Assembly (NCBI RefSeq): GCF_964204865.1
Contig: NC_135255.1
Coordinates: 14,756,001-14,820,000 of the forward strand
Direction: 5' to 3'
DNA length: 64,000 nt
Source of the DNA: Styela clava
Lineage: Eukaryota
Position numbers and translations under genes: made by a program. This document shows, piece by piece, positions 24,813 through 64,000 of the stretch. The first letter of the stretch is position 1. Every line of letters starts with the position of its first letter. A model generated the notes under the pieces. The model saw nothing but the letters and a program-made list of their open reading frames with translations, was not told the DNA's origin and ran no database searches.

Positions 24813-27800
24813 TTATCCCATAGTTGAAGAAAGTAATTTCGACAGGGCGGAATCTGGATTTTTTGACAAGACATCAGGAGTATCGAACTCTTCGACCGTG
24901 CCTTGGTCCAACACCATAATACGATCGCAAGTCATTACTGTATGCAGTCTATGTGCAATAGTAATTAACGTACAATCTGAAAAATATTCGTTTACAGTAT
25001 CCTGCACAAGTCTATCTGTTCTTGCGTCGATTGACGCGGTGGCTTCATCTAAAATAAGCACCTTATTGCGCCTTAATAATGCTCTCGTAAGGCACATTAA
25101 TTGTCTTTCACCAACGGAAAAATTACCGCCGTTTTCGCTTACTGGGGCTTCTAGTTTCATAGGCAGGGATAATATAGTTTCTTTGAGATGTGTCCGTTCT
25201 AAAGCAAGCCAGATTTCTTCTTCCGAATATTGATCAAACGGGTCGACATTGTATTTGACTGTACCCGTGAATAAAACTGGTTCTTGTGGAATGATTGCAA
25301 TTTTTGATCGCAATTGGGATAATGATAATTCTGCTATATTGACACCATCAATTTCAATGCTGCCTCCACACAGTTCAACAAGTCTAAATAACACAACCCC
25401 CAAAGATGATTTTCCAGATCCCGTGCGTCCAACAACTCCGATTTTTTCGCAAGTATTTATAGTGAATGATATATCCTGTAGAACGAGAGGCAGTCCGTCT
25501 CTGTACCGCATTTTCACGTTGTTGAATCGAACAGAACCAAACTCAGGCCATTTTGGATCTAGATCAGCCTTACCGGCAGATTTTGGCTCCTGTGGAACAG
25601 TGGTTATGTAGTGAACGATTCGTTCAGCGCAAACAAAGTTAGCTTCTGCTTCTACTGACGTTCGTGCCGTGAATTGAAAGATCAGTGACAGCATAAGTGT
25701 CGAAGTAATTGCTAGACCGGCATATGCTGCCTGAATCGCACCATTAGTGAGAACTATAAGCAGAGAACTGAGAACGACTAGTGATATAGCCATAAAATCG
25801 AGTCTGGTGACTAGCCATCGATTAATAGCAACGTAGAGAAAATATGGGATCGAATTTGTGTCCAAAAGTTCTTGAAACCGAACGAGAAAATCTTTTGTTC
25901 GATTGTAAGCTCGAATTGTGTGGATACCAGTAATTGAAGTGGTGATGTGGGATATCCATGGCGAACGTGTTATATTATCCTGACGTTTCATCTCTGTAAC
26001 AGCTCTTTTAAAGATGAAAAATGCAGCCAAAAATACGGGGACATAGATCACCATAGAAGCAAGGAAGTACGGAAACACATACGCGATAAAAATAAGACAA
26101 GAAAGAATTAGAACCCAAAATGACAGAACTAAATCCACCAACATCGGAATTATAGTATCCAACATATCTTGATCCTTTTGAAATCGATTCAGTATTCGTC
26201 CAGTCGGTGTTGTATCAAAAAATTCCATGGTACTGTGCATTATTTTGTCAAATAACATATTATGTAGTCCATGAGATGCACGTAAACTCAATGTGGCGAA
26301 GACATAAGCTTTTAACATCATGGAAAATACAGAAGCAGCAATAGTGTATCCAAAAACAGACAGATAAAAGTACAATTTTGGGTTATCAATTACTCTATCT
26401 TCAACAAAGGGCAGGGGCGATACCGTAGTTTGACTTGGTGTTAGACTAGTTGAAACAGTAAAATCAAACGTAGAGTTAAAACCCGACGAAAAATTTGCTT
26501 CCCTTGGTAGCCCCGTAAAATTGTTGACAATAACTTCGATTGTTGAAACATTGCGACCAGATCCTTGTTTTAGCCAATATGACATCCACGCCGATGAAAA
26601 TTGCTGACAACCAATGAACAAAATAAAAGTGAAAAAGTTAAAAATAGTTACGAACCAACCTCCAGCGGCTTTAATGTACATTCTATAGGCTTCGGCGCTT
26701 ATAGCTCCCTTCGCTTTTTCCTCTATGGTCATGAGTCGACCACGTTTCATTTTTTCTGCATGGCTGTAAATTTCATCATCAACGGAAGGCAATAGTTTCT
26801 CTTTTATTGTATTTTTCGGTTTCTCTTGCTGATCGCCTTCTTTTTCTTTTGACCACATTTTATAAAGTTGGTAATATTCGTCTCCGTCATTCAAAAGTTC
26901 GTCGTGAGTTCCTTGTTCCCAAATGCGACCATCTTTCATCAGAACTACTTTATCACAGTATGGTAAATACTCAAGTCGATGTGTCACTAGCACTATTGTT
27001 TTTCCCATATTTTTCAAAAGTTTCACAATTGCATTTTCAAATAAAGCTTTCCCGACATGGGCATCAACCGCGCTGAGGGGATCGTCTAAAAGATATATGT
27101 CTTTATCCATATAAATCGCTCTTGCAATATTAATCCTTTGTTTTTGGCCGCCGCTCATATTGACCCCGCGTTCACCGACCTCAGTGAAATCTCCACTTTG
27201 TAATATGTCAAAGTCTGGCAACAAACAACACGCCTTTACTATTCTATCATATTTCTCAGTATCATATTGTAATCCGAAAGTTATGTTATCACGAATCGTA
27301 TCGTTCATTATCCACGCTTGTTGAGCGCAGTAAGCAATCGATCCGCTTACAGCTACGGATCCATCATCTAATTGAAGATAACCGAGCATGCTAGATACAA
27401 GAGAACTTTTTCCACTTCCAACACGGCCACAAACACCGATTAACGACCCTTTGGCTATTTCCATGGTAATGTTGCTGAGGCACGAAGATGACTGTGTCGA
27501 TGTGGACAATCCATTTTTAGTCAATCCACTCTTTTCAACATCAATGCTATTTGAAACGTCGTCAGATTTTTCAACACTATTTCCGCCATCCGCGTTCGAA
27601 CTCTCCGTAGGCCACGATAGAGTTGCTTGATTCAGTACAATAGGAACGTCTGGTGATTTTATTTCTTTCGTCAAATAATCGATGAATTCTCTTCGATTTA
27701 ATACTTTTTGAGCTCTGTCAATCGCCACCCCTGCTTCTGCGACATTCTTCATAGCCACAGGTATGACCTTCAAACTGAACGACATGAGATGAAACATTGA

Positions 27801-29574
27801 AAAGCAAGTAAAAGCCTCGGAACTTGTGATGTTCTGACCCAGTAATATCGCTAAGACTATTGTTACTATCGTGGCCACGTAAGGTGTTAGTCCGGCCAAC
27901 CCCATATTAAAACTTTGAAGAAACATTGCACGATGAAGATACTTCCATTCGTTATTTCGTATATGATGAACAACTTTAGTGAAAGATTCCTCCCATGCAT
28001 ACATTTTAATAAGTTTAATGGAAGAGAGAATTTCATTGATTGATTTTACTCTCTGGTCTGTAAATTTGACAGCTTTTTGTCTTAAAAGATTCAAAACTTT
28101 CATCAGACCAATTTGAAGCAGTAAAATTAGAATAAAAATACCGCAACCACTCAATGCAATTGGTCCAACTAAAAAACAAACGTAAGTGGTGCCAACCACG
28201 AACATAATAGGACCAGTTAACAGCAAATGTCCAACATTAATAGCGTCAAATACGCGGTCACCATCGCTAGAGCATAAATTCACAATTTCTCCAACGCTCG
28301 AGGATTCTGTTGGTGGTACTTGGAGTATTTTTTGAAAAACTGCCATTGTTAATGCGGCCCGAGTGCGGGCTCCAGATCTCATGCTTACAGCAAATGACAT
28401 GGAGAAGCAAATCAATCTTATCACTTCAGCTATCAGCATCCCAACGACTAGTAATATCCCGGCTTTCAAGTCTGAGTTTGAGGTTTCAACATATTGCAGC
28501 AAATACCTAACGACGATTCCATTACTTGCAAACTGTGCAAGAACAAAAAATAATATGCATATTGTAGAAACGGCCAGTCTTGTACGTATAAAACGGAAAA
28601 TAACCCGTTTCAAAGATGCCAAGTCCCCTCTATTTTTTATCTCCTCAGACCATAATCGAACGAACCTCTGGCAGTTGGTTTCGGCAGCGTCATACTTTGG
28701 AACTTTCCACAGGCTTTCAATTGGAACTGGAGACCTAAATACATATAGTATTAAATCACAGCCGATAGTAGATAAGAATTCATACCCGCTTAGTCGGAGT
28801 ATACTATTAGACTCTCAGATATCAGCGATGTATAATTGAATTGCATTTAATGCTTTAAAAAAATCATTTGCAAGTTTCCGAAAATGATCGCCAGTGGATC
28901 ATACAGGCAGAAAATGCATAAATAATGCATCAAAAAAAAAAAAAATTGAGCTCGAAAAAATATAAAAAGGAGCTGAAATATAATGTTTTTATGAATTTCC
29001 AGCAAAATTTTTTATTTCATGTCACACTCGTCGATTATCCTGCCACTTCAGAGTTTTCCTTGGGTACTCACTTGTGCAAACATGTTCCAAATTATTCAGG
29101 AAGTTTTTAATTTCACAGGGTTATGTTAGAACCGTGGCTGTATAACAATAATTTCAAACTGAAATATTTCGATAAGGCGGTTATCGCCGTACTGCAGTCT
29201 GTAATATACAAATTCCAGAAAATTTATCTCTTGTTATTTGTTACGGCACGGTGGTATGCATGCCCAAATGCTTCCGACTAAACTAGACATATCATTCACA
29301 TATATATTTATATTACATCAGCGACTACCACAAAAATAAACTATTGGAATAGGGATTGAATATTAAACAACTTAGTAAATGCTCACCTGTATAACTTCCA
29401 TACTAAGCCGGTTACCCACGAATAAAACACAGTGGAAAAGAATCCAGCATTATCAATGGGATGTCCGATTGCTTTCTTACTCCGATAAGGCAACAATGCT
29501 TTTGCAGAATTTCTGTATTTTCCACCTCTGCGAAATTCCACATTAGGTTTGTTGTCTTTTTTATTACCTCCCAT
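24813..29574 (-). CDS. ABCC5: ABC transporter C family, ABCC5/MRP5-like (no TMD0), 1369 aa, two coding exons
   Basis: Exon 29574-29387 (HPIDNAGFFSTVFYSW) splices to 28734-24813. TMD1-NBD1-TMD2-NBD2 order. Walker A GRVGSGKS and GRTGSGKS; signatures MSGGQ and FSVGE; Walker B IYLLDD and LILDE. Assignment within the ABCC5/11/12 clade comes from motif recognition only. Confidence 0.9.
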
Positions 29575-35456: not shown

Positions 35457-36407
35457 CTATTTTAAGTCCCACTCAGGATGGTGAAAAAATATATTTTTCC
35501 ACGATTTAGCCCACTTTTTGTATACTCTTTTCTCAGTGAGAAATCGATGTGCACCAGCTCTTGCATATTCATGTGTTCTATAAGTAGAACACTGATTAGT
35601 GCCTTTTTTATAATAGTGATATGGGACATCTTTAAACAATTTAACTAGCTGTTTTTCACAGTAATCATCTTCTACCATTCCATAAATATGGATTTGCTTG
35701 CATATATCTTTAGCAAATAAAATACTGAACCACCCAGTTGACAAATATGCTCCAGATTTCATACGATTTTTTCCAGTTTCTATTTCGAAGCGATTGTCTG
35801 CATCTTTAACTCTATTTTGACTCAAAACATGAAGATTGATATCAGGATTTTGTTTCACGATGTCTTTTAAGTGTCTATTTGTTATTTTTCCCGGTTCCAA
35901 ATTCTTCTTCGGACCCCAAACCAGAAACAAGGCATTTGCAACTTCTTCTGGAGTTATTCGTGCATAATTTTTGACATCTACAACTGATGAATGAGCAAAT
36001 ATTCTGTATGTTGTTTTTGACCCAACGTCTTCTTCAAATGTTGCAGTGGGTGCATTGTTCATTCTCAAAACACAATCATGACTATCTATTTCTATCCCAG
36101 CTTTGCTGTCGAGCATTGTACCGGCACTGCTTACTAATGCACATGAATTGCACAATATTGGAAATGTACTTCTACCATTAAACCGAATGAAATCTTGATT
36201 GAAATCAGTTTTGAAGACTGCTCTATTGATTGGCGTAGCATTTACATAATTATCATCATCGCTTTTTTGAAGTTGTATGGAGTATCGTACAGGCGATTTT
36301 GAGATGTTACTATAATACAATATGCCTGCTAACAAAAGCAAAGATGTCACTATAATAAATATCTTCCTATGTCTGAAGATGAACACGTTGCAATTCTGGA
36401 ACAGCAT
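35457..36407 (-). CDS. ST6GALNAC: Alpha-N-acetylgalactosaminide alpha-2,6-sialyltransferase (GT29, ST6GalNAc III-VI-like), 316 aa, single coding exon
   Basis: Type II TM segment (IFIIVTSLLLLAGILYY); sialylmotif L CALVSSAG...EIDSHDCVLRMNNAP...DVGSKTT; motif S LSTGWF...C...IYGM; motif III PYHYY; motif VS HRFLTEK. The first true ATG is at 36407; the ORF track starts at an upstream GTG. Confidence 0.92.
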   Translation of the reverse strand: MLFQNCNVFIFRHRKIFIIVTSLLLLAGILYYSNISKSPVRYSIQLQKSDDDNYVNATPINRAVFKTDFNQDFIRFNGRSTFPILCNSCALVSSAGTMLDSKAGIEIDSHDCVLRMNNAPTATFEEDVGSKTTYRIFAHSSVVDVKNYARITPEEVANALFLVWGPKKNLEPGKITNRHLKDIVKQNPDINLHVLSQNRVKDADNRFEIETGKNRMKSGAYLSTGWFSILFAKDICKQIHIYGMVEDDYCEKQLVKLFKDVPYHYYKKGTNQCSTYRTHEYARAGAHRFLTEKRVYKKWAKSWKNIFFHHPEWDLK

Positions 36408-37117
36408 GATTTTATTTTCAACACAATGTTCCCATGTAACCACACAGAATCTTCACCTTTTCAATGCCTAAACGTATATGATACGAAAAATTATTTGAAA
36501 TGACTCAGAAATCACCACAAAATCAATGAAATATAGCCTCTATACTGTATGTAACAGACCAAATTGGACTTGGCTGAACAGTAAAAAGAGCACAAACAAT
36601 AGATTACTGCATTATGGAATGTCGTACACTTCGCAGACATACAGCTATAACTACCGGTAAGTGTCCACACACTGTTGCTTCATCAGTAAGTACTCTCCAT
36701 ACAGCCATAATTCAGTAATTAGTTGAGGAATCAGGATCTTGTTATAAGGTTTTTTATTTAATTTTTCCATTGAAGTGTCAAACTTTTATTAATGTTGACT
36801 TCGCCTGTTAAAAATCCTTTCCCACCAGACGATAGATAAATTAGTTGAAATCCGACATGTTACAAAAAAGGTCCATGCACAAGCCAAACACACAACGAAA
36901 ATAAACATCTGAACATGATAATCATTCAAAAAAGTATTAATTTACATGGGTAATCAGACCTCGCTACCGGTACTGTACCTACAGACCTATGCCACTGATT
37001 ATAAGTTAACAGGATCCCTCTGAGTGAATCGACTATAACAGACGGCAATATCAAGAAGTGCTGAGGTGTGCATGTACCTGATGTCAGGATAATTTTGTCA
37101 GTAAATTAACAACTTAC

Positions 37118-43500: not shown

Positions 43501-45657
43501 TTTTCGAGTATCTATGCCGTTTTAAATGGGTTATATGAAAGGCTAGGGCCCCTAACTTGTTAAAATGGGCAAAAGCACTTTCGCACTTTTTTTTTGGACT
43601 GCGAAGCACTTTCGCACTCATAATTTGCTTAGAGTTAACACTGTTGCCTACCCAATTTATCTCACACTGGATGAGATGACAGGCTTTGAACTCGAGATTT
43701 GTAACCTGCAGTGTCAATATAGTTCATCTAACGCTGTAATCAGTAGGCCATCCCGCTTGCATATTATATGTGCTAAATCAAATACCATAAGATTTTAATT
43801 CCAATACTAACAGCTCTTGTGATAAAAAGTAAATATGTCTTGATGATCATTTTTAGTATGAAGAAGAATTTCCGTTAGAGAACTGTTGTATAATCGTCGA
43901 TGCCGGGTATTCATTCACACACATTGTTCCTTATCATGCAGGAAAGAAAATTACAAGTGCACTTTGCAGGTATACCAGGTTTTTAGCAATTTTAGGATAG
44001 AAGAAGTCATTTTTTTTTTGTTGCTCCAATAAAAAGGGATTAAATTGTGCATGCAGCATTTAGATTCTAGCTATCCTTACTGTGATATGTCAAAAACCAA
44101 TTGAGTAATTGATTTCATGAGGGGAAACCTGGCCACCTCACGGAGAGAAGAATGGATGTCTTGTATAATCTCTAGCAACTATTGTTGTTTGGTTAACTAC
44201 AAAATCACCAATATTAACAGTACTCTGAAAACTAAATCTGTTTTTTTTTTTTACCTAGTAAAATTGTGTGTTGGTTTTAATTTCTCTTATTTCAAAAAAA
44301 AAACGAGTCGGAAAATATTACTTAAATTCATAGAAAAAAAAACATTAAAATGATATGTTTCTATTTGCAGAATTGATGTTGGTGGGAAATTACTGACAAA
44401 TCATTTGAAAGAAATAATTTCATATCGACAATTACAAGTTATGGATGAAACCTATGTAATGAACCAGGTAATTTATTGTTGAACTAAAAGTTCTTGACAA
44501 ATTCATCCCTCATCGGTTGGTGCACTACGTTTAGGTTGTTTGCCATTGCAATTCTTCACCCTACCTACGTGGATTCAATCCCTCAACTACTCGTATTTAT
44601 AGCATCCTCCCCATAAGTACATGCAACTGATATGATTAATTGGTCAACTTTACCCAATCGGGGGAGGAAATACAGTTTAATTTTAAAAACATCATACCTA
44701 ACAAAAAAATTACAGGTGAAAGAAGACTCATGTCATATAAGTATGGATTTTTTTAAAGATATGGAAAAATCAAAACTAAAGGGAGATGCAAATCCATTGC
44801 TTTGTGAATATGTACTTCCTGATTATACGCATATCCACAGAGGATTTATAAAAGTAAGTCTTACAGCAAAGTCGCCAATATCGTCGGTGAAATTGTGTCA
44901 AACAGCAATGTTGAATACCTTTCAGAAAAAGGGAGCAGGTAGTGAAAAAAGTAGCAAAACTCAAGAGCAGACCATCAGATTAGCAGGCGAAAGAATATCT
45001 GTACCAGAGGTGCTGTTCCATCCATCCGACATTGGCATACCTCAAATGGGAATTCCTGAAGCAATCGTCCACAGCATTGAAAAATGTCCTGAAGGTAGGT
45101 ATAATGTAAAATGAATGGACATGACTGAACGAAACAGGAGGGCTGTACAGTCTTTTTATTCCTGTCTGTGTCAATATTTTATGATCTTTTCTCGATGTTA
45201 CAGAACTTCGTCCACACATGTATAGAAATATAGTTTTAACGGGAGGAAGCTGCAACTTTAAAAATTCCAAGGAGAGAGTTGAAAGAGAAGTCAGAAGTTT
45301 GACACCGTCACTGTATAAAGTCAGAGTTACAATGTCAGACAGGTGGGTGATTTAATAATTTTTGGAACAGAAGAATTGTACTACATCACTAACTTCAGAT
45401 GCCCCCATTAACCGAAATGTGAGACTTTTTGTGTGTCACAGAATTTTATTTGAATGAACAATATATATTCTAAAAAATAAATACAAAATGTATCGGCTGA
45501 TTTTGATCCATTTACCATCCACAGACCTCAAGAGTATGCATGTGCAGGAGGGCTGGCATGGTCAACAGCAGATCATTTTCGAGAACATCTTCTTACATTA
45601 GAAGAATATCAGGAGGCCGGTCAGAGTGCTTGTCAACGACAGTTCATTGACATCTGA
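37545..45657 (+). CDS. ACTR6: Actin-related protein 6 (SWR1/SRCAP subunit), 398 aa, 9 exons
   Basis: Exons 37545-37618, 37851-38037, 38396-38542, 43857-43969, 44371-44467, 44716-44853, 44926-45094, 45204-45342 and 45525-45657 (1197 nt). Motifs [82 protein letters not shown]. Confidence 0.97.
38631..43643. mobile_element. 5.0-kb non-autonomous hAT-type element in ACTR6 intron 3
   Basis: Perfect 8-bp TSD ttgcctac (38623-38630 and 43644-43651); TIRs cagtgttcact / agttaacactg; subterminal gcactttcgca repeats at both ends; no transposase ORF seen. Confidence 0.92.
40386..41066. repeat. ~104-bp tandem array (about 6.5 units) with a ~207-bp higher-order dimer
   Basis: Units start at about 40386, 40493, 40597, 40701, 40804, 40908 and 41012. 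Units 3 and 5 share cgcgaaaa/gcgatt/cagga; units 4 and 6 share cgcaaaa/gcaatt. Confidence 0.93.
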
Positions 45658-61265: not shown

Positions 61266-61946
61266 TGGACGTTGCGTTCCTGTATATTATCATAAATTTA
61301 TTATTCACGTCATTGCGTTCCGAACTGTCCCGAGTGCAGACTTGTTGTTGTTAGTATACGTCTGCTCGGTATTCTTCTTTTTGTTCATGTGGGGAAACTG
61401 GACCGATTGCTTTGCAATTTTTAGTGGTTCAAGATTGCTGCTGTTTTTCACCGTTAAGTTTTGTGTGATGACGTCTTTAAAGTTAAAAATTACACACCAT
61501 GTGGCGTTCCGCGATCACAATATAACCATCTGGGTATCAGCGAAATCGTGAGAGTTTGTTTCATAAGGTAGAGCAGAGCTACTCAACTGGCGGACCGCGG
61601 TCCGAATCCGGACCTTTCGAGTATTTGATTCGGACCGCAACTAATTCTTTATTTCGAATCATTAGCCCCACTTTTGAAGTTTCCTTTTATAAATGACTTT
61701 TATTGTTTTGAATATATATGAAAAGAACTATAACACCATAATATACAATCTCGATTAGCTGATATAATCATTAGCCGGTTGAGGAAGTGCGCGTTTAAGG
61801 ATGCCGAAATATAATTTCTGCAAACACCGGACCCAAATAATTGTGAAGTTTTGAATGCGGATCTTCGGTAAAAATAGTAGCCCTGAGGTAGAGTGTAGAA
61901 CTGTAGACTGTCAAAGCTTTGATACTATTTGAGCTGCTCTCTTGTT
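61266..61946 (+). mobile_element. Diverged HINE-like element interrupted by a hAT MITE (61574-61885)
   Basis: HINE core ggaccgattgctttgcaatttt and end gagctgctctcttgtt. The inner MITE runs cagagctactc...agtagccctg with a perfect TSD aggtagag. Confidence 0.72.
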
Positions 61947-61986: not shown

Positions 61987-64000
61987 ATGCATAGGTTGTT
62001 AGTACATGAACTGATCTTAATATGTATGGTTTTATTGATGCGTACAAGCCTATCACGCGAGGAAAACGTGACATCTCCATACGATGAAGTTACAAGATTG
62101 AACCAATCAGCAGATGTCGCTCGTGTTTCAAAATTTGTATCGTGTGAAGTTCTAAATCCATTAAAATTTAGAGAAAATATCTCCGTACAAAGCAAATGTT
62201 GCCGTTCTCTATATAAAACATTCCAAAAAAGATGGCGTAATATTGATAACAAACTTAGTGAATGGTTGAATTTGCTGAAATTATGGAAATGTCCACAATT
62301 TCGAAAGGAATGCGATTCGCCAACATTTCCTTTCAATGATTTCACGAAGACTTTATATAAACGATTCTGCAATCCTGAGAAATTTTATTCTGAATGCTCA
62401 AAAAAGTTATTTCCCAAAGAAATCGACACTTCGGGATCAGGATCAGGAATGCCGTTTGAAACAGACGAAAGTCCTGTTCATAACAAAACCGATTTTCAAA
62501 TGCTTCCTGCAAAATCCACCGTCATAAAAAGTCTGAAATTCGAAGAACTTTTCGAACCTTGTGTACAAGCATCATTAGTTGAAATTGGAGGAATGCCCAA
62601 ACAAGAAAATTTCTTCGAAATGAAAGTTGGAGATCTTCCTTTCTGTGAAATTGTTTGGTGTGCACTTCCAGCTGAAGTGTTCCTGACTAAAAAAGTGTCG
62701 ATTTCAATGTGTATGCCAATGCGGTAAGTATAGGTTACATGACATAATCAAATCTAGGGGCACAGTTCATTTCGAACATAGGCAACAATTATATTTTGTC
62801 TCATTGAACAGCCATTTCAATAGCATTTGTTTTGCAAAATAAAAGAATAAAATACTACGACAATGTTAATATATAAAACTGTCTCTATAAAACTTAGAAA
62901 AAACTAATTTTTCTAAATTTTTTTTCTGATTATATCCAGTTTAATTTTTTTTTATTTTCTATACAGATGCAAAGTAAACATGTACGTGTTTATGTCGTTT
63001 GCGGGACTTTTAGGGTTAGCAATCATTTGTACCAATATCACTGTACTCGTCGTCTTTTCTGTGAAGAAGCATTCAATGAATAGCCAGCGATTATACAAAA
63101 TATCATTAGCAGTCGCTGATTTACTGGTTGGTCTAGTCGTGCTTCCAACAATGATCACCACGATACACGAAAGCTTCAATTTTCACCATGAGGTGATTGA
63201 TACTGTTGATAAATACGGAAGGAATATCACAACAATAACAGATGTGTTATCATCATATGAGTTTCTAGGAATCTCAGGATTCTTCACAACGCTTTCCTTG
63301 TCTGTCTCGATTTACACACTCATGGTTGCCAGTTTTGATCGACTTATGGTTGTATATAAACCTCTTGAATACAACAAGTTTCGTGCCATATCAATTGCAA
63401 AGATTCTTATAGCTATTGTCTGGATATTGTGTTTGATTTTTTCTCTCCTACCGTTTGCTGTTGATGGCCTGTTCTATGCATTCGTTGCATCTGTTGTTGT
63501 ATCACTAGGTGGGGGATCAGCTTTAATTTTATATTCCGTAGTCATGGTGATTCCCCTGTTAATAGTATGGGGAACGAACATCGCGACCTTGTCATTATTC
63601 AAACGAAACGCCGGGAATGCTCGGATGCCAGCATCTAACGCCCAAACAAACCAAAATAAAACTGAGAACCAGCTTGTGAAAACTTTATCTGTTATGGTCG
63701 GTGTTTTTACTTTTTGTCTCATACCATTGGTGCTTCTTACAATCTCGCAGTTCTTCGTAAGCGGGATTTATCTGAATGATCCGAAAAACTTCAACCAAAG
63801 TTCGTCGTCAATTATGATGTCATTCGAAGCTGTCACTGTACTTATACTAATGTCAAATAGTTTATGGAATATTTTCATTTACAATGGAAGAAGCCCCGAA
63901 TTCAGATCGATGAGTAGAGAACTCTTCAGAAGTATTACCGGTAAAATTCAGCAACAATTTTCTTGCAACAAGTTACATCGTCATCAAGAAAAAGGTGGAA
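61987..64000 (+). CDS. Class A (rhodopsin-like) orphan GPCR with a large Cys-rich N-terminal ectodomain; 3' end outside the window
   Basis: Exon 61987-62723 (signal peptide plus ectodomain) splices to 62967-end, which is open to the window edge. TM1 ...ICTNITV, TM2 SLAVADLLVGLVVLP, TM3 ASFDRL...PLEY, TM4 W, TM6 FTFCLIP, TM7 SNSLWNIFIY, helix 8 PEFR. Confidence 0.92.

What the first reader, a model, noticed from the sequence alone, without database searches (positions are those of the whole stretch)
61987..64000. Class A GPCR with an unrecognised 12-cysteine ectodomain and non-canonical core
After a signal peptide there is a ~225-aa ectodomain with 12 Cys, compatible with six disulfides, that matches no domain I recognise (not LRR, LDLa, GAIN or an evident Frizzled CRD). 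The 7TM keeps LAxAD and DR but lacks the conserved TM3-ECL2 disulfide cysteines. It has CLIP for CWxP, NIFIY for NPxxY and a long ECL1. This points to ligand capture by the ectodomain, possibly of a protein ligand, in a lineage-specific receptor family. Automated pipelines might mislabel it as an amine receptor even though the TM3 Asp is absent.
Basis: partly seen in the sequence, partly recalled or inferred. Interest (0 to 1): 0.7.

Follow-up and report, generated by a model that had tools for sequence, protein, structure and literature searches.

The report
Sea-squirt peptide receptor with undescribed cap
This spliced sea-squirt gene belongs to a known tunicate family of neuropeptide receptors and, like its relatives, carries a cysteine-rich outer domain with no Pfam family that likely helps to catch the ligand, probably a short peptide.

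Summary
Exon 1 (61987-62723) and exon 2 (62967 to 86 nt beyond the window) join over a 243-nt GT-AG intron into a 618-aa class A GPCR. It has 12 ectodomain cysteines, T3.32, no C3.25 or ECL2 cysteine, CLIP and NIFIY. Contigs of two public runs skip exactly this intron. The family is not unknown: the protein is 34% identical over 518 aa, ectodomain included, to the deorphanised Ciona Ci-LF-1 receptor. All five published Ci-LF neuropeptide receptors show the same cysteine pattern, and the odd 7TM motifs are family traits. The genome holds at least 20 paralogues, and all 16 named homologue clusters checked are ascidian. Databases mislabel members as rhodopsin, cannabinoid, melatonin or histamine H2 receptors. 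The ectodomain has no Pfam family and is not mentioned in the main text of the deorphanising paper. AlphaFold predicts it confidently as a helical domain next to a long ECL1 hairpin. Best reading: an orphan LF-receptor-family paralogue whose disulfide-stapled cap likely helps bind a short peptide. A protein ligand is less likely. The ligand of this paralogue and the role of the cap are untested.

The parts
61987..62723 (+). Coding exon 1: N-terminal hydrophobic segment and ectodomain (aa 1-245 plus 2 nt)
   Evidence: covered by spliced contigs from 62001/62016
61987..62055 (+). Predicted signal peptide (aa 1-23)
   Evidence: hydropathy segment 4-23, helix 2-22 in the model; no dedicated predictor run
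62143..62723 (+). Cys-rich ectodomain core, C53-C242: predicted helices 65-141 and 177-196, strands 209-214 and 223-228
   Evidence: AF2 pLDDT 85.3, pTM 0.82 alone; conserved W83, L90, Y124, P191-C192-x-Q194, E211, P218-F-C220, W224
62413..62514 (+). Variable low-confidence linker inside the ectodomain (aa about 143-176, contains SGSGSG)
   Evidence: pLDDT 56-69; length-variable among paralogues
62724..62966 (+). 243-nt phase-2 GT-AG intron; position conserved in the family
   Evidence: skipped in contigs of X1 and X2, not in X8; same position in 19 of 20 modelled loci
62967..64000 (+). Coding exon 2: C247 and the class A 7TM; continues 86 nt beyond the window to the stop
62968..62970 (+). C247, twelfth ectodomain Cys at the top of TM1; inferred partner of C220
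   Evidence: Cys in 20 of 20 own-genome models; pairing is by elimination only
63175..63264 (+). Long ECL1 (about 30 aa) with predicted beta-hairpin 322-326/332-336
   Evidence: 24-53 aa in 44 of 46 family rows
63337..63345 (+). D-R-L (3.49-3.51)
63715..63726 (+). CLIP (6.47-6.50), no W6.48
   Evidence: W is not among the four commonest residues at 6.48 in 45 rows
63868..63882 (+). NIFIY (7.49-7.53) within the family motif NSLWN-x-F-I-Y

Best explanation
This is a spliced ascidian class A GPCR of the family that holds the Ciona LF-neuropeptide receptors; it is likely activated by a short secreted peptide, and its cysteine-rich ectodomain is predicted to fold into a helical cap that likely helps to bind that peptide. 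Shown: gene structure, family membership, and conservation of the ectodomain, its cysteines and the odd 7TM motifs across the family. Predicted: the helical fold and the ECL1 hairpin. Inferred: disulfides C53-C71 and C225-C242 (co-loss); C220-C247 stapling the cap to the top of TM1 (elimination only); the cap and long ECL1 stand in for the short, disulfide-free ECL2 and set selectivity, while the peptide's hydrophobic end enters a hydrophobic pocket with a conserved E7.35; signalling goes through the intact D2.50/S3.39/N7.45/N7.49, D-R and Y7.53 switches to a G protein of unknown class.
For: P0168 (BBC53701.1, 'Ci-LF-1 receptor') turned up in the 90% cluster of a hit of the ectodomain-only profile. 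The query is 34% identical to it over 518 aa, 26% in the ectodomain and 37% in the 7TM. An ectodomain profile built without P0168 scores it at 189 bits. All 5 Ci-LF-R sequences in Dataset S3 of PMC6475428 show the Cys pattern by eye and the 4 other receptors there do not. The paper reports EC50 0.71-5.25 nM for the preferred LF peptides on putative full-length receptors fused to Galpha-q16. Ectodomain and 7TM stay together: 35 of 35 profile hits over 300 aa carry the family 7TM. Co-loss among 130 core sequences: C225/C242 both 95, neither 32, discordant 3; C53/C71 both 97, neither 13, discordant 10 (sequences are related, so these are not independent events). The pocket positions tabulated are mostly hydrophobic or small, with E7.35 in 35 of 45 rows. 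A clade of the query's five-gene Styela subgroup plus two Ci-LF-R-type rows is not rejected (p-AU 0.225).
Against: The query is not a one-to-one orthologue of a deorphanised receptor: a clade of query + Ci-LF-1-R + P0086 is rejected (p-AU 2e-45), and it sits in a well-supported subgroup with no named non-Styela member. That subgroup departs from family consensus near the membrane (A226 for G, S240 for W). Ciona has family members outside the LF-R group for which I found no ligand on record (P0042, P0060, P0079), so most of the family appears orphan. No experiment read here tests the ectodomain. The LF pairs rest on one paper and one assay type.
Confidence: 0.55

Rival explanations
1. Peptide receptor, but the ectodomain is only a structural lid (folding, surface delivery, damping of basal activity); the peptide is bound by the 7TM and its loops alone.
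For: Most conserved ectodomain residues are Cys, aromatic or Leu, as a folding core would be. Short peptides usually bind class A receptors in the 7TM pocket (own knowledge). PMC6475428 predicted its pairs by machine learning and never mentions the ectodomain in the main text.
Against: A 200-aa domain is kept on every long member found (35 of 35), and polar E211 (98%) and Q194 (91%) are conserved. ECL2 is short and has a Cys in only 1 of 46 rows.
Confidence: 0.2
2. This paralogue's subgroup has moved to a different ligand class, such as a secreted protein caught by the ectodomain or a waterborne chemical cue sensed at the siphons.
For: At least 20 paralogues in tandem clusters, with the ectodomain more divergent than the 7TM (mean identity 29% against 35% over 741 pairs). 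Subgroup-specific changes at 226 and 240. Most Ci-LF-Rs are expressed in the siphons (PMC6475428).
Against: The only ligands on record for the family are neuropeptides. Domain architecture and cysteines match Ci-LF-8-R by eye.
Confidence: 0.17
3. Tethered-agonist receptor: ligand binding to the cap moves the conserved membrane-proximal segment (E211, PFC, WCG, C247) into the 7TM, as the hinge of glycoprotein hormone receptors does.
For: The membrane-proximal segment is highly conserved and ends in a Cys at the top of TM1; the analogy to the hormone-receptor hinge is recalled.
Against: No LRR or GAIN/GPS Pfam match; no cleavage motif seen by eye; nothing here shows constitutive activity.
Confidence: 0.06
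4. The database labels are right: opsin (Gq rhodopsin) or amine (histamine H2) receptor.
For: Names of XP_039253864.1 and ART85726.1; best PDB sequence hits are adenosine A2A, beta-1 adrenergic and 5-HT2C receptors.
Against: M7.43 instead of the retinal Lys; T3.32 instead of Asp in the query and in the Botryllus protein; Asp is not among the four commonest residues at 3.32 (T in 38 of 46); no W6.48.
Confidence: 0.02

Closest known systems
Ciona LF-neuropeptide receptors Ci-LF-1-R, -2-R, -5/6-R, -7-R, -8-R; urochordate LF-R clade (PMC6475428; read: abstract and introduction, passages of Results, Discussion and Methods, Dataset S3 cut at about 400 residues per sequence; SI PDF not readable)
   Same: Same architecture: signal segment, Cys-rich ectodomain, long ECL1, no C3.25, no D3.32, no W6.48, no P7.50, E7.35. 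34% identity over 518 aa to Ci-LF-1-R.
   Different: Separate subgroup, one-to-one orthology rejected; has the C53-C71 pair that Ci-LF-1-R lacks; S240 and A226; ligand unknown.
Vertebrate MECA-cluster class A receptors (adenosine, cannabinoid, melanocortin, S1P/LPA)
   Same: Adenosine A2A is the best PDB sequence hit (E 3e-14). The paper also names cannabinoid, adenosine and adrenergic receptors as nearest (21-26%). Lack of the TM3-ECL2 disulfide in CB1, melanocortin and S1P receptors is recalled.
   Different: None is known to me to carry a 200-aa disulfide-rich ectodomain (recalled); W6.48 and P7.50 are absent here.
Class B1 (secretin-type) two-domain peptide binding; glycoprotein hormone and relaxin receptors (class A with LRR/LDLa ectodomains); Ciona LDLRR-GPCRs (PMC2396169; passages read)
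   Same: Works like: a disulfide-bonded N-terminal domain in front of TM1 that likely helps bind the ligand.
   Different: No HRM, LRR or LDLa Pfam match; the domain is predicted mainly helical; the 7TM is class A and not relaxin-receptor-like by best hits.
Botryllus schlosseri 'histamine receptor h2' ART85726.1
   Same: Family member with the full ectodomain (205 bits); sister to own-genome paralogue L026.
   Different: Its name implies an amine ligand, but it has T3.32. The paper behind the name is recalled only and was not found in two searches.

Membership tests
Class A (rhodopsin-like) GPCR | PF00001 above cut-off and 7TM fold | tested here: met
Class A (rhodopsin-like) GPCR | N1.50, D2.50, R3.50, W4.50, P5.50, P6.50, Y7.53 | tested here: met
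   all present; P7.50, W6.48 and C3.25 are replaced, as in the family
Urochordate LF-receptor clade (PMC6475428) | Full-length homology to Ci-LF-Rs far above that to other GPCRs | tested here: met
   34% over 518 aa, 296 bits to Ci-LF-1-R against 56 bits for exon 2 to the best PDB receptor; shared ectodomain. No outgroup receptors were in my trees, so monophyly of the family was not tested by tree.
Urochordate LF-receptor clade (PMC6475428) | Restricted to tunicates | tested here: inconclusive
   16 of 20 clusters looked up are named and all 16 are ascidian (Ciona, Phallusia, Clavelina, Botryllus); the other listed non-Styela hits and the 41 unlisted of 191 have no taxonomy
Ci-LF receptors in the strict sense | One-to-one orthology with a deorphanised Ci-LF-R | tested here: not met
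   query + Ci-LF-1-R + P0086 rejected, p-AU 2e-45; subgroup-level co-orthology not rejected, p-AU 0.225 (only 1 deorphanised receptor and 1 close relative of Ci-LF-7-R were in the tree; 16 of 46 rows dropped)
Ci-LF receptors in the strict sense | Activation by an LF peptide | not testable with these tools
   needs a cell assay; pattern searches for a precursor gave chance-level counts
Opsins | K7.43 | tested here: not met
   M541
Aminergic receptors (histamine H2 included) | D3.32 and W6.48 | tested here: not met
   T353, L497; Botryllus 'H2' has T and C
Known GPCR ectodomains (LRR, LDLa, GAIN/GPS, Frizzled CRD, HRM, Methuselah) | Pfam match above cut-off | tested here: not met
   0 of 19 ectodomains reach any Pfam cut-off; best E 0.004, to a GS low-complexity motif in the linker
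Known GPCR ectodomains (LRR, LDLa, GAIN/GPS, Frizzled CRD, HRM, Methuselah) | Shared fold | tested here: inconclusive
   fold searches of the ectodomain model; see Tried and rejected

The most novel reading that the evidence does not exclude
The ectodomain is a new extracellular fold invented in tunicates and is the main peptide-binding and selectivity module, so that a class A receptor of small-molecule-receptor ancestry became a peptide receptor by evolving a class-B-like two-domain binding mode with an unrelated fold.
Probability: 0.35. Interest if true: 0.72.

Novelty: new member of a known kind. Interest (0 to 1): 0.5.

Why it matters
The receptor family is known, but its 200-aa ectodomain appears undescribed in what I could read. 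Five members already have nanomolar peptide ligands and a working expression system, so the role of the domain can be tested at once with swaps or cryo-EM. If the cap binds the peptide, it explains how tunicates built new neuropeptide receptors from a branch whose nearest vertebrate relatives bind small molecules, and adds a new ectodomain type to class A. The domain is also a clean marker for the family: it exposes at least 20 orphan paralogues in this genome and flags database names (rhodopsin, cannabinoid, melatonin, histamine H2) that the key residues do not support.

Full report
Gene structure. The finding is a two-exon gene on the + strand. Exon 1 is 61987-62723, the intron 62724-62966 (243 nt, GTAAGT...TACAG, phase 2), and exon 2 runs from 62967 to a stop 86 nt past the window end. 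The 618-aa product equals an NCBI gene call (P0002) and differs at 18 positions from XP_039253864.1, named 'rhodopsin, GQ-coupled-like [Styela clava]'. One contig each in runs X1 and X2 skips exactly these 243 nt with GT..AG ends, while a contig of X8 is colinear with the genome. X1 and X2 belong to one study, and their RNA label is a guess. Their contigs run on about 1.3-1.4 kb past the stop.

Anatomy. After a hydrophobic segment (4-23) come 12 Cys: 53, 71, 72, 102, 109, 128, 137, 192, 220, 225, 242 and 247, the last encoded by exon 2 at the top of TM1. The 7TM matches PF00001. It has N1.50, D2.50, S3.39, D-R-L, W4.50, P5.50, E6.30, C-L-I-P and N-I-F-I-Y, with L3.25, T3.32, M7.43, a Cys-free ECL2 of about 24 aa and an ECL1 of about 30 aa. 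So it is neither an opsin nor an amine receptor by the defining residues.

Family in this genome. The ectodomain finds 20 matches among 21 candidates scored (a lower bound). The 7TM finds 21 among 37, and 20 of them lie directly behind an ectodomain match. In 19 of 20 loci the same phase-2 intron joins the parts just before the last Cys; L039 has a further gap. Copies cluster on contigs C6, C13 and C14. One lies tail-to-tail about 2.4 kb beyond this gene's stop, and its predicted 409-nt intron is skipped in contigs of two studies.

Family elsewhere. A profile of 19 ectodomains hit 191 clusters at E <= 0.001 among 1.84 billion proteins, 150 listed. All 35 stored hits over 300 aa also carry the family 7TM, and many short hits end at the same intron position. 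Of 20 clusters looked up, 16 have names, all ascidian: Ciona, Phallusia, Clavelina, Botryllus. Names include 'cannabinoid receptor 1-like', 'melatonin receptor type 1B-like', 'histamine receptor h2' and 'Ci-LF-1 receptor' (BBC53701.1, P0168).

What is known. PMC6475428 (read: abstract, introduction, passages of Results, Discussion and Methods, Dataset S3; SI PDF unreadable) deorphanised five Ci-LF receptors with EC50 0.71-5.25 nM for their preferred peptides. It placed them in a urochordate LF-R clade with Botryllus and Oikopleura sequences and no close non-urochordate relative, and found most of them expressed in the siphons. All five sequences show the ectodomain Cys pattern by eye, with 10-12 Cys; the other four receptors in the file do not. 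The main text never mentions the domain. PMC12441681 (passages) states that Ci-LF-1 to -8 come from one precursor and that their functions await study. That LF peptides are 5-9 residues long is recalled, not read. PMC2396169, PMC9138782 and PMC7002689 (passages) add nothing on the domain.

Place in the family. The query is 34% identical to Ci-LF-1-R over 518 aa, and the odd motifs are shared: no C3.25, S/T3.32, L6.48, F/I7.50, E7.35. In three trees it sits in a subgroup with L021-, L022, L023 and L024/L025 (support 99). One-to-one orthology to the LF-Rs is rejected (p-AU 2e-45), but co-orthology of the whole subgroup is not (p-AU 0.225, 30 of 46 rows, no outgroup). The ligand therefore cannot be assigned by orthology.

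The ectodomain. No Pfam family reaches its cut-off in any of 19 members. AlphaFold2 with 110 homologues gives pLDDT 85.3 and pTM 0.82: five helices (65-141), a loose linker, short helices and two strands (209-214, 223-228). The full-length model (113 rows) gives pLDDT 85.5 and pTM 0.82, with hairpins in ECL1 and ECL2. Such a pTM suggests, but does not show, a fixed seat of the domain on the 7TM. Co-loss across 130 core sequences (of 157 aligned) points to C225-C242 (95 both, 32 neither, 3 discordant) and C53-C71 (97, 13, 10). The other eight Cys are nearly constant, so their pairing is open; C220-C247 is my inference. Fold comparisons were inconclusive (see Tried and rejected).

Mechanism. Most likely (0.55) this is a peptide receptor in which the stapled cap and the long ECL1 replace the usual disulfide-tied ECL2 as the outer half of the binding site, with the peptide's hydrophobic end in a hydrophobic pocket bearing E7.35, and signalling through the intact sodium-site and D-R/Y7.53 switches. 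Family membership is near certain. A peptide ligand for this paralogue and a binding role for the cap are inferred and untested.

Verdict. New member of a known kind. The gene is an orphan paralogue of a published, partly deorphanised tunicate family. What appears new is the recognition of a conserved, confidently folding ectodomain without a Pfam family on all its members, which is directly testable because cognate peptides exist. Interest 0.5.

Noticed in passing
window 24816-28814 (-): Uninterrupted 1333-aa open frame with two ABC_membrane and two ABC_tran stretches: an apparently intronless full-length ABC transporter, unusual for an animal gene of this size; possibly a retrocopy.
   Followed up: no
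window 35460-36452 (-): 331-aa single open frame of a sialyltransferase-like GT29 protein, PF00777 E 8e-32.
   Followed up: no
window 44617-45111 (+): Open frame with an actin-family match, E 7.5e-10; probably one exon of an actin-related protein.
   Followed up: no
window about 61570-61900: High-copy repeat about 90-400 nt upstream of the ATG, with a perfect 12-nt inverted pair (61597-61608/61627-61638) and very many matching contigs in all runs; looks like a MITE-type element.
   Followed up: partly
L021:4963-7279 (-) = G000:C6 about 14822460-14824780: Convergent paralogue about 2.4 kb beyond the stop, 35% identical; its 409-nt intron is skipped in contigs of runs X2 and X5.
   Followed up: yes
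L028:6785-7558 (-): Paralogue with Tyr at the otherwise conserved C220 and an extra Cys in the helix before position 90 (GRACLT), which its two close siblings lack.
   Followed up: no
L039:3222-3966 (-): Divergent paralogue with a short ECL1 (about 11 aa) and a gap of about 128 nt inside the ectodomain relative to P0121: an extra intron or an insertion.
   Followed up: partly
P0039 (ART85726.1): Botryllus protein deposited as 'histamine receptor h2' is a member of this family and lacks D3.32; the name is doubtful.
   Followed up: partly
P0178 (unnamed ENA record): Very divergent member with ectodomain and TM1-TM5 in one called gene on a 2.3-Mb contig, so it may lack the family intron; no named relative found.
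   Followed up: partly
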